64,000 nt of DNA from the IMG/VR virus record IMGVR_UViG_3300045988_149737; one strand, written 5' to 3'. A program made the position numbers and the translations under genes. The notes below the pieces were generated by a model. It was not told where the DNA came from and did not search any database. It saw nothing but the letters and a program-made list of their open reading frames with translations. Numbering within the stretch: position 1 is the stretch's first letter; every line of letters begins with the position of its first letter. Source of the stretch: a virus (lineage: Duplodnaviria; Heunggongvirae; Uroviricota; Caudoviricetes). Shown here one piece after another: positions 62,768 through 63,552 of this stretch.

Positions 62768-62790
62768 GGCCCCATGCTCTTGATGGGGCC
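62768..62790 (+). terminator. stem-loop after operon
   Basis: GGCCCCATgctcttgATGGGGCC; no U-tract. Confidence 0.45.
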
Positions 62791-63188
62791 TGTAGCAACT
62801 AGCGTTATGGACGCTGGTTTACGTACTCAATGATCGCTTTGATAATCGCGAACATCGGCGGCACGATTTTGAACAGTAAGTTAACCATAACAGGCCTCAC
62901 TTAGTTTTATCGCGCCTAGCTGCAAATACCTTTGGGCTTGCCTTTGCAGTTGCAATATCTGTAGTCGCCAGATACTTACGGCACGATTTCGAGTTAAGGT
63001 AAGGTTTTAGAGTCACCAAAAACCTGGACTTAAATCTTCTTTGAGAACAACGATGTTTAGTAAATGGTCATTATTACCTGGTATGACCACTCAACGCTTC
63101 TTGATGAATCCAGTACATTCGGTTAATCTTAATTCAGTCGCCAGATACTTATGGCTCAGGAACAGAGACGCAAACTCTGTTTCCTTTT

Positions 63189-63219
63189 AAAAAGCCCAGC
63201 CTAGTCAACTGGGCTTTTT
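63189..63219. terminator. bidirectional rho-independent terminator inside ORF-free region
   Basis: AAAAGCCCAGcctagtcaaCTGGGCTTTTT. Confidence 0.7.
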
Positions 63220-63516
63220 AACGTCTGTTTTTTAACCCAACACACCCTCAATACTGCAACATCAGTGTCTTGCAACCTAAGATAGTGTCTGTAGGTTCTT
63301 CATGCAAGTGCATAACTCAGTGGATAACTCATGAAGGAAAAAGTAGCTTCCGCGCAATTTAGACCAGACAAGGTCTTCGCAAAAGTCAACGGAAAGAGAA
63401 AAATTTGTTAAAAATAACGTTTGTTGGAATTGTATATATTTATGCCTTTCAATAGTTAGCATCTTATTAACATCTTTTTTAAGAGATAGAGTTCAAAAAT
63501 ATATAGCTTCAACATA

Positions 63517-63536
63517 TACTGTATGTATATACAGTG
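63517..63536 (+). promoter_or_regulatory. LexA (SOS) box
   Basis: TACTGTATGTATATACAGTG matches CTGT-N8-ACAG; 16 bp upstream of the UmuD'-like start. Confidence 0.7.
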
Positions 63537-63552
63537 TTAAGAGGCGAGTATT

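What the first reader, a model, noticed from the sequence alone, without database searches (positions are those of the whole stretch)
62790..63552. 760-bp ORF-free region with paralogous sRNA-like units and an internal terminator
Two related units begin AGTCGCCAGATACTTAyGG (62964 and 63136), each followed by a local hairpin, and the second ends at a strong bidirectional terminator (63189-63219). A further repeat GGCACGATTTyGA occurs at 62870 and 62984. The region ends at the LexA box before humD, so small regulatory RNAs look more likely than coding sequence.
Basis: seen in the sequence. Interest (0 to 1): 0.5.

Follow-up and report, generated by a model that had tools for sequence, protein, structure and literature searches.

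The report
Unannotated type I toxin–antitoxin module
The "empty" stretch in front of the humD gene of this phage-plasmid most likely holds a small membrane-peptide gene on the opposite strand and a neighbouring small RNA that pairs with its leader; this is a classic RNA-controlled toxin–antitoxin layout, but the family is not in any annotation or library searched.

Summary
The repeats and the hairpin are real, at the stated coordinates, and not due to chance. The region is not ORF-free, and the two units are not paralogous sRNAs.

On the minus strand, 62888→62805 encodes a 27-aa hydrophobic peptide (MVNLLFKIVPPMFAIIKAIIEYVNQRP). It has a GAGG Shine-Dalgarno, a third-codon-position substitution bias across relatives, and a terminator at 62791–62767. 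Unit 1 (62963–62982) lies in that gene's ~137-nt leader.

Unit 2 (63136) is the 5' end of a predicted ~84-nt plus-strand sRNA (63136–63219). It has a conserved promoter (TTGATG-17-TAATCT), three stem-loops with compensatory changes, and an intrinsic terminator. The sRNA 5' end pairs with the leader over 20 nt (−38.5 kcal/mol).

Across plasmid and IMG/VR relatives the pairing sequence occurs in four different versions, each mirrored in both copies. Differences within a locus are G·U-compatible only in this strand orientation.

This is the architecture of the divergent, non-overlapping type I toxin–antitoxin class (tisB/istR-1, zorO/orzO, shoB/ohsC, dinQ/agrB). No Pfam, NCBIfam, PHROG, PADLOC or Rfam model matches, and nothing is annotated there in any of the 142 record rows listed in four searches (306 plasmid and E. 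coli records matched in total). Transcripts and toxicity are untested.

The remaining part, 63223–63552, is conserved upstream sequence of the LexA-controlled humD gene.

The parts
62767..62791 (-). Intrinsic terminator of the toxin mRNA: AGGCCCCAUCAAGAGCAUGGGGCCU followed by CUUUAUCGUA. It also closes the upstream plus-strand operon.
   Evidence: Terminator scan. Relatives L016, L018 and L024 carry a hairpin with a clear T-run in the minus-strand sense at the same place (alignment).
62805..62888 (-). Toxin candidate ORF: 27 codons plus stop, MVNLLFKIVPPMFAIIKAIIEYVNQRP. The ATG is at 62888-62886.
   Evidence: ORF list, (listed from the upstream GTG at 62900). The peptide is conserved in all relatives. 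Variable columns by codon position are 6/3/16, and window versus L016 shows 9 synonymous against 2 nonsynonymous differences. Sequence verified.
62895..62898 (-). Shine-Dalgarno GAGG, 6 nt upstream of the ATG.
   Evidence: Relatives have GAGG, GGAGG or AAGGA at the same position.
62860..62867 (-). It can pair with GGCGCGAU at 62909-62916 (helix B), enclosing the SD and AUG.
   Evidence: MFE folds. 85% of cells paired across 10 lineages, with one pair compensatory (UA:4, GC:2). Speculative.
62909..62916 (-). Leader segment GGCGCGAU, which pairs with either copy of AUCGUGCC.
62920..62949 (-). Invariant leader hairpin CUGCAAA...UUUGCAG.
   Evidence: 7 pairs, 100% paired and never varying across the aligned lineages. 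Because it is invariant, it says nothing for or against the structure.
62955..62975 (-). Target hairpin GUAUCUG-GCGACUA-CAGAUAU. Its loop is complementary to the sRNA 5' tail.
   Evidence: 95.6% paired, 2 compensatory pairs. In L006 both arms change to GUUAAC/GUUAAC together with the sRNA.
62980..62987 (-). It overlaps the 5' end of the sRNA target.
   Evidence: RNAalifold. 93.8% paired, 1 compensatory pair.
63002..63025 (-). 5'-terminal stem-loop of the predicted toxin mRNA (AGGUUUU...AAAACCU).
   Evidence: 3 of 7 pairs have compensatory changes, 91.4% paired. Folds.
63033..63064 (-). Candidate weak toxin promoter: -10 AAGATT at 63038-63033; -35 TAAACA at 63059-63054 or TTTACT at 63064-59. 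Predicted start near 63025/63026. Inferred only.
   Evidence: My own relaxed scan places a -10-like hexamer ending 10-14 nt upstream of TTGGTGA in most of the nine lineages scanned (not in L003). The stricter tool scan found nothing here.
63101..63129 (+). sRNA promoter: -35 TTGATG (63101-06), 17-nt spacer, -10 TAATCT (63124-29).
   Evidence: The hexamers TTGAwG and TAAkCT are conserved at a fixed 17-nt spacing while the spacer sequence varies across lineages (alignments). This is only 7/12 to the consensus, so the tool scan did not list it.
63136..63219 (+).
   Evidence: Fold -33.9 kcal/mol, z = -5.66. 9 of 24 pairs compensatory. Covariance model hit of 101 bits. Duplex with the leader -38.5 kcal/mol, against -17.1 +/- 2.8 for shuffles.
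63307..63330 (+). Tandem DnaA-box-like 12-mers AGTGCATAACTC AGTGGATAACTC. Not part of the toxin-antitoxin module.
   Evidence: repeat family D1. Relatives and P7 read TGTGGATAA there.
63380..63552 (+). Highly conserved AT-rich upstream region of humD: promoter TTCAAA-17-TATACT (63492-63520), LexA box 63517-63536, SD GAGG.

Best explanation
Positions 62767-63219 are a compact type I toxin-antitoxin-like cassette made of two divergent, non-overlapping transcription units.

**Minus strand (toxin).** An mRNA of about 265 nt (predicted start ~63025, terminator 62791-62767) carries a structured ~137-nt leader and a 27-codon ORF for a hydrophobic, single-helix-sized peptide. I infer this peptide is a membrane-active toxin.

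**Plus strand (antitoxin).** A conserved sigma-70-type promoter fires at 63136 and makes an ~84-nt sRNA that ends at the 63187-63219 terminator.

**Interaction.** The first 20 nt of the sRNA (single-stranded tail plus the SL1 loop) are complementary to leader positions 62982-62963, which lie 75-94 nt upstream of the AUG and partly in a hairpin loop.

**Inferred mechanism.** The sRNA nucleates on that loop and forms a 20-26-bp duplex. This blocks toxin synthesis indirectly, in three possible ways:
- It gives RNase III a substrate.
- It occupies or removes an upstream ribosome-loading (standby) region.
- It may release the segment GGCGCGAU from the leader copy of AUCGUGCC, so that it pairs with the ORF copy and shuts the SD/AUG into a stem.

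**Inferred biological role.** Stabilisation (post-segregational killing) of the low-copy phage-plasmid, or abortive-infection-type defence.

**Shown here from sequence:** the ORF and its coding signature, the sRNA structure and its covariation, and the co-variation of the two pairing partners.
**Inferred:** transcript ends, toxicity, and the mode of repression.
For: **1. Small ORF**
- It is present with an SD at the same place in all relatives.
- Substitutions concentrate at third codon positions (6/3/16). Window versus L016 shows 9 synonymous against 2 nonsynonymous differences.

**2. sRNA**
- Fold z = -5.66.
- The consensus has three stem-loops, and 9 of 24 pairs carry compensatory changes.
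- The -35 and -10 hexamers are conserved with a variable 17-nt spacer. A plus-strand T-run is kept in all lineages.

**3. Pairing**
- 20 contiguous base pairs, -38.5 kcal/mol, against -17.1 +/- 2.8 (best -25.7) for 500 shuffles.
- Four versions of the pairing core occur: CAGATACTTA, CAGATACATT, CGGTTAACAA and CAGTGTTTTA. There is also a GTAGCC variant. Each is mirrored in both copies of its own locus, while the flanks differ.
- Within a locus, differences at positions 2-20 are only C>T or A>G. These become G.U pairs only if copy 1 is read on the minus strand and copy 2 on the plus strand.
- The proposed orientation gives the more stable duplex in 7 of 8 lineages.

**4. Leader**
- The 5' stem-loop, the target hairpin and helix A show compensatory changes. 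Overall 95.1% of cells are paired, against 30-48% when the partner is slid by 1-3 columns.

**5. Module behaviour**
- Distant hits in Citrobacter, Enterobacter and Klebsiella plasmids cover only the stretch from leader to sRNA terminator. They sit in different gene neighbourhoods.

**6. Architecture**
[quoted passage not shown] There the asRNA lies 5' of the mRNA, does not overlap it, is within 300 nt, and interacts over at least 15 nt (PMC8594479).
- It also matches OrzO, whose 5' end pairs with 18 nt of the zorO 5' UTR (PMC3919570).
Against: - There is no transcript, toxicity or stability data of any kind.
- The toxin promoter is weak and only inferred. The tool's 9/12 scan finds none, and my relaxed scan gives 7/12 sites.
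- The sRNA promoter is also only 7/12 to consensus.
- The relatives are few lineages (effective sequence number 1.72). The compensatory changes therefore represent a handful of events. Concerted evolution of the two short repeats cannot be formally excluded.
- Thermodynamic modelling showed no change in RBS accessibility when the target site was blocked or the 5' end was trimmed: 0.42 in every condition for the window. The proposed refolding or standby mechanism thus has no computational support beyond the existence of the alternative helices.
- In L018 the opposite-strand duplex is more stable.
- The peptide matches no known toxin family.
- Pattern scans of genome and metagenome collections found nothing.
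Confidence: 0.75

Rival explanations
1. The sRNA-controlled small ORF is real, but the peptide is not a toxin or addiction element. It would be a small membrane protein with another role in the phage-plasmid (for example lysis timing, superinfection exclusion or transporter modulation), tuned by the neighbouring sRNA.
For: - All the structural evidence fits this equally well.
- No known toxin family matches.
- The peptide carries two Lys, one Glu and a Pro-Pro pair, so it is not an extreme hydrophobic stretch (16 of 27 hydrophobic residues).
Against: To my knowledge, this combination has been described essentially for type I toxin-antitoxin systems (PMC8594479):
- a peptide under 30 aa;
- a long structured leader;
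- a divergent dedicated sRNA with extended perfect complementarity.

In addition:
- The cassette moves as a unit between unrelated plasmid contexts.
- It often carries two tandem paralogous peptides.
Confidence: 0.14
2. One reading: two paralogous small RNA genes on the plus strand, each starting at AGTCGCCAGATAC, in a non-coding spacer.
For: The first 20 nt are shared, and a hairpin follows each unit.
Against: - Unit 1 lacks the conserved promoter hexamers that precede unit 2, and it lacks a T-run terminator.
- The covariance model of unit 2 gives 20.8 bits at unit 1 against 101 bits at unit 2.
- The sequence downstream of unit 1 is conserved as a minus-strand leader joined to a coding ORF.
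- The asymmetry of the within-locus differences favours opposite-strand transcription of the two copies.
Confidence: 0.05
3. The two direct repeats are DNA sites for one sequence-specific protein (operators, iterons or a partition site). They co-vary because the protein's specificity changes between plasmids.
For: - The repeats are direct repeats about 153-179 bp apart and are mirrored between lineages.
- Copy 1 sits in an inverted repeat.
- In one relative a RepA gene lies about 1.6 kb away.
Against: - Copy 2 begins exactly 7 nt after a conserved -10 and is followed by two covarying stem-loops and a terminator.
- The copies differ only by transitions that keep RNA pairing in one orientation. 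DNA-site recognition would not require this.
- The 3' arm of the copy-1 hairpin covaries too.
- No candidate binding protein travels with the cassette.
Confidence: 0.04
4. The region is a decayed protein-coding gene, as suggested by the 117-aa minus-strand CDS annotated over the homologous stretch in Enterobacter plasmid NZ_CP074151.
For: An annotated CDS, WP_182403649.1, lies at the homologous place. The window's minus frame shows recognisable similarity to it.
Against: - The window frame has four stop codons within about 40 codons.
- The annotated ORF overlaps, out of frame, the conserved small ORF found in that plasmid.
- The conservation pattern is explained by RNA helices.
Confidence: 0.02

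Closest known systems
zorO-orzO / zorP-orzP of E. coli O157:H7 (type I toxin-antitoxin)
   Same: - A toxin of about 29 aa, here 27 aa.
- A long 5' UTR of 174 nt, here about 137 nt (predicted).
- An sRNA gene divergent from, and not overlapping, the toxin gene.
- The 5' end of the sRNA carries a continuous 18-nt (here 20-nt) match to the leader, far upstream of the RBS.
- A short variable stretch within the pairing region sets specificity between paralogous pairs (PMC3919570; PMC5397157 abstract).
   Different: - No sequence similarity of peptide or RNA: no Pfam, NCBIfam or Rfam hit.
- Located on plasmids and phage-plasmids rather than the chromosome.
- Many relatives carry two different small ORFs in tandem behind one leader.
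- RNase III dependence and leader processing are untested here.
tisB-istR-1 of E. coli
   Same: - A divergent sRNA pairs roughly 100 nt upstream of the toxin RBS.
- Repression is indirect, through standby-site competition and RNase III cleavage. This is established knowledge (Darfeuille et al. 2007), recalled by me and not tested here.
   Different: - tisB is SOS-controlled by a LexA box at its promoter. Here the only LexA box in the region (63517-63536) serves humD, about 490 bp from the predicted toxin start.
- No sequence similarity.
dinQ-agrA/agrB of E. coli
   Same: A 27-aa membrane peptide, repeated sequence elements next to the toxin gene, and a non-overlapping antisense RNA (PMC8594479).
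   Different: - In dinQ the repeats are two homologous sRNA genes (agrA, agrB). Here one repeat copy is the sRNA and the other is its target.
- No LexA control.
- No sequence similarity.
hok/sok-type plasmid addiction modules
   Same: Plasmid-borne, a small membrane toxin, an antisense RNA antitoxin, and a structured mRNA with a 5' stem. The presumed role in plasmid maintenance is also shared.
   Different: Sok is fully overlapped by the hok mRNA (PMC8594479), and Hok is about 50 aa. Here the RNAs do not overlap. No Pfam or NCBIfam model, Hok included, matches.

Membership tests
[quoted passage not shown] | Small (<60 aa) hydrophobic peptide ORF under purifying selection | tested here: met
   The ORF is 27 aa with 16 of 27 residues hydrophobic. 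Codon-position bias is 6/3/16, and synonymous changes outnumber nonsynonymous ones in most of the closer pairs.
[quoted passage not shown] | Antisense RNA gene located 5' of the toxin mRNA, on the other strand, not overlapping it, within 300 nt | tested here: met
   The predicted starts are 63136 (+) and ~63025 (-), about 110 nt apart. The geometry comes from conserved promoters and terminators. The criterion is taken from PMC8594479. The transcript ends are predictions.
[quoted passage not shown] | At least 15 nt of complementarity between the sRNA and the toxin mRNA leader | tested here: met
   20 contiguous pairs in the window and up to about 26 in relatives. The pairing sequence covaries in four versions.
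[quoted passage not shown] | Peptide toxic on overexpression, with toxicity neutralised by the sRNA | not testable with these tools
   This needs induction and rescue experiments.
[quoted passage not shown] | Both RNAs actually transcribed | not testable with these tools
   No expression data were available. No paper containing these sequences was found.
Known toxin peptide families (TisB, ZorO, ShoB, DinQ, Hok, Ldr, Ibs and others as modelled in Pfam/NCBIfam) | Sequence match to the family profile | tested here: not met
   0 families at E <= 10 for four peptides of this family in NCBIfam and Pfam. In PHROGs only one relative's peptide gave a weak hit of unknown function (E = 0.16). PADLOC gave nothing.
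Known antitoxin RNA families in Rfam (IstR, OhsC, OrzO-P, Sok, Sib, RdlD and others) | Covariance-model match | tested here: not met
   A cmscan of 62000-64000 at E <= 10 returned only chance-level hits: RNAI at 19.1 bits against a gathering score of 47, and others at or below 19.2 bits.
SOS-induced type I toxins (tisB, dinQ) | LexA box at the toxin promoter | tested here: not met
   The only CTGT-N8-ACAG in the region is 63519-63534, at the humD promoter.

The most novel reading that the evidence does not exclude
This would be a previously undescribed family of plasmid and phage-plasmid type I toxin-antitoxin cassettes with three unusual properties.

1. The sRNA acts as a structural switch. 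By invading helix A it hands the shared segment GGCGCGAU to a duplicated AUCGUGCC inside the ORF, which closes the RBS.
2. The 10-nt recognition core exists in at least four mutually poorly cross-pairing versions. These would act as orthogonal 'addiction classes' between co-resident plasmids.
3. The ancestral form is bicistronic, with two paralogous toxins under one leader and one antitoxin RNA.
Probability: 0.2. Interest if true: 0.6.

Novelty: new member of a known kind. Interest (0 to 1): 0.5.

Why it matters
- **Clinical and ecological reach.** pLF82/Cyrano-type and related phage-plasmids are common in clinical and animal E. coli. The cassette is in 115 of 5,426 complete E. coli genomes and 93 PLSDB plasmids.
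- **Annotation gap.** No feature is annotated under the match in any of the listed records. The peptide appears only as a "hypothetical protein" in a 15-billion-protein collection.
- **A candidate for plasmid persistence.** A dedicated RNA-controlled toxin next to the SOS-regulated humD gene is a plausible reason why these low-copy elements persist.
- **A natural set of orthogonal sRNA–target pairs.** Four recognition versions exist in nature, which is useful for studying antisense specificity.
- **A general lesson for annotation.** "ORF-free" spacers in mobile elements can hide genes below the length cut-off. One database CDS over this locus (117 aa in NZ_CP074151) is probably spurious.

Tried and rejected
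- **Rfam.** All families scanned on 62000-64000 at E ≤ 10: only chance-level hits.
- **Protein family libraries.** Pfam, NCBIfam, PHROGs and PADLOC on the peptides gave nothing usable.
- **Large protein search.** An exact look-up found only unnamed or "hypothetical" entries.
- **Literature.** A full-text search for peptide and RNA strings found 0 papers. Searches for type I TA with phage-plasmid, SSU5, pHCM2, pLF82 or Cyrano found nothing on this locus. The supplements of Fozo et al. 2010 are not held.
- **Collection scans.** The leader motif gave 0 hits in genome contigs and metagenome contigs.
- **Pseudogene reading.** The Enterobacter 117-aa CDS was rejected because the window's corresponding frame has four stops.
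- **Plus-strand ORF 63041-63190 (49 aa) ending at the terminator.** Rejected. Its 5' half is not conserved outside close relatives, and the sRNA alignment has 1- and 2-nt indels.
- **Minus-strand ORF 63277-63462.** Rejected. It is 80 aa in relatives and annotated in SP15_P2. There is no coding signature (differences by codon position 10/14/14; 5 synonymous against 19 nonsynonymous codons), and it is frameshifted in this window.
- **LexA control of the toxin.** There is no box near its promoter.
- **In-silico test of the repression mechanism.** RBS accessibility was computed with and without the target blocked, and with and without a 5' truncation. There was no difference, so the test is uninformative.
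- **Long-range 5'-end/SD pairing.** RNAalifold proposed it on the leader-only alignment. Single-sequence folds prefer the local 5' hairpin, which has better covariation. I do not rely on the long-range helix.
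Full report
**Context.** The window around the finding is 97.0% identical to Escherichia phage Cyrano (OV696614.1), the phage-plasmid of E. coli LF82, and 92% identical to phage CMS-2020a. The same 800 bp is found at 95.8-97.2% identity in the best-matching E. coli and Escherichia plasmids of about 100-150 kb, including pLF82 NC_011917.1; in 83 plasmid records one match covers at least 80% of the query. The ORF starting at 63553 is the UmuD-like gene, annotated as 'LexA-like peptidase S24' in Cyrano and matching humD of P1. In Cyrano no gene is annotated between the upstream hypothetical gene and this one.

**Checking the observation.**
- AGTCGCCAGATACTTAYGGC lies at 62963 and 63136 (19/20 identical).
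- CGGCACGATTTYGA lies at 62859 and 62979 (13/14 identical).
- A perfect 13-bp inverted repeat lies at 63187-63199 / 63209-63221.

The 20-mer has exactly two matches in the 64-kb window even with three mismatches allowed, and none in 100 shuffles. The 14-mer pair alone is only borderline significant by my estimate. The LexA box TACTGTATGTATATACAGTG is at 63517-63536.

**The decisive lead.** A distant DNA search showed that only the central part of the region (about 62895-63219) is conserved at 68-82% in plasmids of Citrobacter, Enterobacter and Klebsiella. These sit in different gene neighbourhoods. Reading those loci shows the same layout everywhere.

- a hairpin terminator;
- one or two very small ORFs with good Shine-Dalgarno sequences;
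- a conserved leader that contains repeat copy 1.

- conserved -35 and -10 hexamers;
- repeat copy 2 starting 7 nt after the -10;
- two hairpins, the second followed by a T-run.

In the window the small ORF is 62888→62805, MVNLLFKIVPPMFAIIKAIIEYVNQRP. GAGG lies 6 nt before the ATG, and the minus-strand terminator found by the scan is at 62791-62767.

**Is the ORF coding?** Two IMG/VR pattern scans and the plasmid hits gave about a dozen distinct lineages. The peptide is conserved in all of them:
- MVNLLFKIVPPMVVIIKAIIEYVNQRP
- MADLLLKIVPPIIVIITAIIEYVNQRP
- MVALLLKIVPPMFVIINAIIEYVNQRP
- MVSLLLKILPPLVAIITTIIDYINKR

Among six lineages the variable alignment columns fall 6/3/16 on codon positions 1/2/3. 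Window versus L016 has 9 synonymous against 2 nonsynonymous differences. This is the signature of a translated gene.

Many relatives carry a second, paralogous ORF directly after the leader and ahead of this one, for example MQMLLLFLKLAHPVAVIIMTLLGYWKDR. One relative (L005) has only that type.

The 117-aa CDS annotated over the leader in NZ_CP074151 is probably spurious. The corresponding frame in the window has four stops.

**Is unit 2 an sRNA gene?**
- The 87 nt from 63136 fold into a 5' tail plus three stem-loops, at -33.9 kcal/mol and z = -5.66.
- On 11 distinct sequences RNAalifold returns the same three helices. 9 of 24 pairs have changes on both sides.
- Upstream, TTGAwG and TAAkCT are conserved at a fixed 17-nt spacing while the spacer itself varies. 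This is what a promoter looks like in an alignment. It matches the consensus in only 7 of 12 positions, so the tool scan did not list it.
- The T-run after the last hairpin is on the plus strand in every lineage. The A-run that makes the hairpin look bidirectional is specific to the window's close relatives.
- A covariance model built from these sequences scores 101 bits at 63136-63219 and only 20.8 bits at unit 1. The two units are therefore not paralogous genes; they share only the 20-mer.

**Do the two copies talk to each other as RNA?** If copy 1 is transcribed as part of the minus-strand leader and copy 2 as the plus-strand sRNA, they are complementary. RNAduplex gives 20 contiguous pairs and -38.5 kcal/mol. 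Five hundred shuffled sRNA 5' ends give -17.1 +/- 2.8, with a best value of -25.7.

The strongest evidence is comparative. The core of the repeat occurs in four versions:
- CAGATACTTA (window);
- CAGATACATT (most relatives);
- CGGTTAACAA (Klebsiella, L006);
- CAGTGTTTTA (L033/L051).

There is also a GTCGCC→GTAGCC variant (L018). In every locus both copies carry the same version, although the sequences flanking the copies are unrelated to each other.

Within a locus the copies differ at positions 2-20 only by C→T or A→G, going from copy 1 to copy 2. These are exactly the changes that give G·U pairs in the proposed orientation and mismatches in the opposite one. The proposed orientation is the more stable in 7 of 8 lineages. 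The cross-pairing matrix shows that the L006 pair is nearly orthogonal to the others: -49.3 kcal/mol cognate, against -16 to -27 for foreign sRNAs on its leader.

**The leader.** On a 10-lineage alignment I counted pairs for a named structure.

| Helix | Window coordinates | Cells paired | Pairs with compensatory change |
|---|---|---|---|
| 5' stem-loop | 63002-63025 | 91.4% | 3 |
| Helix A | 62980-87 with 62909-16 | 93.8% | 1 |
| Target hairpin | 62955-62975 | 95.6% | 2 |
| CUGCAAA hairpin | 62920-62949 | 100% | 0 (invariant, uninformative) |

Overall 95.1% of cells are paired, against 30-48% when the partner is slid by 1-3 columns. No shuffle out of 500 reaches the observed values.

The loop of the target hairpin (GCGACUA) is complementary to the single-stranded 5' tail of the sRNA. 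This is a typical nucleation geometry. In L006 the 3' arm of this hairpin changed together with the target and the sRNA (GUUAAC/GUUAAC), giving a three-way covariation.

Its two copies, one in the leader and one in the ORF, are both complementary to the single segment GGCGCGAU (62909-16). Single-sequence folds that include the ORF choose the ORF copy (helix B), which encloses the SD and AUG. Helix B is 85% paired across lineages, with one compensatory pair. The sRNA site overlaps the leader copy. sRNA binding could therefore shift the segment to the ORF copy and close the RBS. This is speculation. Constrained partition-function calculations showed no change in RBS accessibility.

**Toxin promoter.** The tool scan finds no 9/12 promoter on the minus strand between the two copies. 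A relaxed scan of my own finds a position-conserved weak candidate in most of the nine lineages scanned (not in L003). Its -10 ends 10-14 nt before the invariant TTGGTGA (window: AAGATT, 63038-63033). This would start the mRNA at about 63025/63026, exactly at the base of the 5' stem-loop. It is an inference, not a result. A weak toxin promoter is usual for such systems (my own knowledge, not tested here).

[quoted passage not shown] The antisense RNA lies 5' of the toxin mRNA without overlap, is within 300 nt, and interacts over at least 15 nt (PMC8594479). The present locus meets all three.

The closest functional analogue is zorO-orzO. It has a 29-aa toxin, a 174-nt leader, a divergent sRNA whose 5' end pairs with 18 nt of the leader, RNase III-dependent repression, and a short variable stretch that sets specificity between paralogous pairs (PMC3919570; PMC5397157 abstract).

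Membership in any known family fails on sequence:
- No Pfam, NCBIfam or PADLOC model matches, and the only PHROG hit is a weak one (E = 0.16, unknown function) to one relative's peptide.
- No Rfam model matches above noise.
- There is no LexA box at the toxin promoter, unlike tisB and dinQ.
- Nothing is annotated under the match in any of the 142 record rows listed in four searches, out of 306 matching records in those searches.
- The exact peptide exists in a 15-billion-protein collection only as an unnamed JGI entry and a 'hypothetical protein' of a viral MAG.
- No paper in the library contains the peptide or RNA strings.

I therefore file it as a new family within a known kind.

**The rest of the interval (63223-63552).** This part is not part of the cassette. 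From about 63300 it is conserved in the SSU5-like relatives, and at 86% in P7, some P1 isolates and SJ46. The stretch of about 63380-63500 is identical in three lineages that otherwise differ by several percent. It contains two tandem DnaA-box-like 12-mers at 63307-63330; relatives read TGTGGATAA there. It also contains the humD promoter TTCAAA-17-TATACT and the overlapping LexA box. An 80-codon minus-strand ORF is open in relatives and annotated in one plasmid. It shows no coding signature and is frameshifted in the window.

**Verdict.** The best explanation is an unannotated type I toxin-antitoxin-like cassette (confidence about 0.75). The existence of the ORF, of the sRNA and of their pairing is each better supported than the toxicity, which is inferred from architecture alone. 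The finding is of solid but moderate interest: it is a new family of a well-known kind, with some unusual details (four recognition versions, tandem toxins, a possible alternative-helix switch) that would raise its value if confirmed.

Noticed in passing
window 63307-63330: Two tandem 12-mers, AGTGCATAACTC AGTGGATAACTC, resemble DnaA boxes. In Cyrano, SP15_P2 and P7 the second reads TGTGGATAA, a perfect TTATCCACA on the other strand. The window carries a T>A change. Their function upstream of humD is unknown.
   Followed up: partly
window 63380-63500: An AT-rich stretch is identical in three SSU5-like lineages that differ elsewhere, and about 95% identical to phage P7 (91.7 kb region, annotated there with three overlapping 'Upf' ORFs). 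It is more conserved than neighbouring coding DNA. It has no Rfam hit and no convincing ORF.
   Followed up: partly
window 63277-63462 (minus strand): A minus-strand ORF that is 80 codons long in relatives (annotated as hypothetical in plasmid SP15_P2) is cut to 61 codons here by a 1-nt insertion in an A-run. The substitution pattern between lineages is not coding-like (10/14/14 by codon position).
   Followed up: yes
window 63511-63540 (minus strand): A sigma-70-like site (TTAACA-18-TATGTT, 9/12) on the minus strand overlaps the LexA box. This raises the possibility of a divergent SOS-controlled leftward transcript that would end at the 63187-63221 hairpin.
   Followed up: no
L003 2860-3040; also L005 2830-2960, L006 2890-3000 and other distant loci: In the distant relatives a second conserved non-coding block (…GCTATATGGTGAGTATTCTAGTA…TTGATTTTGAnGTTAAATTGAGGTTG…) follows the sRNA terminator. 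It is absent from the window lineage. Its function is unknown.
   Followed up: no
L003 2375-2728 (NZ_CP074151.1, WP_182403649.1): A RefSeq 117-aa 'hypothetical protein' is annotated across the toxin leader and, out of frame, across one of the small ORFs. It is probably a spurious gene call.
   Followed up: yes
L003, L006, L015, L035, L039, L042, L045, L048, L053: Many relatives carry two different small hydrophobic ORFs in tandem behind one leader and one sRNA (for example MALLLLFLKLVHPVTAIITALLGYFKDR followed by MVALLLKIVPPMFVIINAIIEYVNQRP). The window has only the second type, and L005 only the first.
   Followed up: partly
window 12902-13555: A cluster of four tRNA genes (Asn-GTT, Tyr-GTA, Thr-TGT, Ser-TGA) lies on the plus strand.
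   Followed up: no
window 15623-15638: This is the only other CTGT-N8-ACAG (LexA-box core) in the window. Its count is within chance expectation.
   Followed up: no
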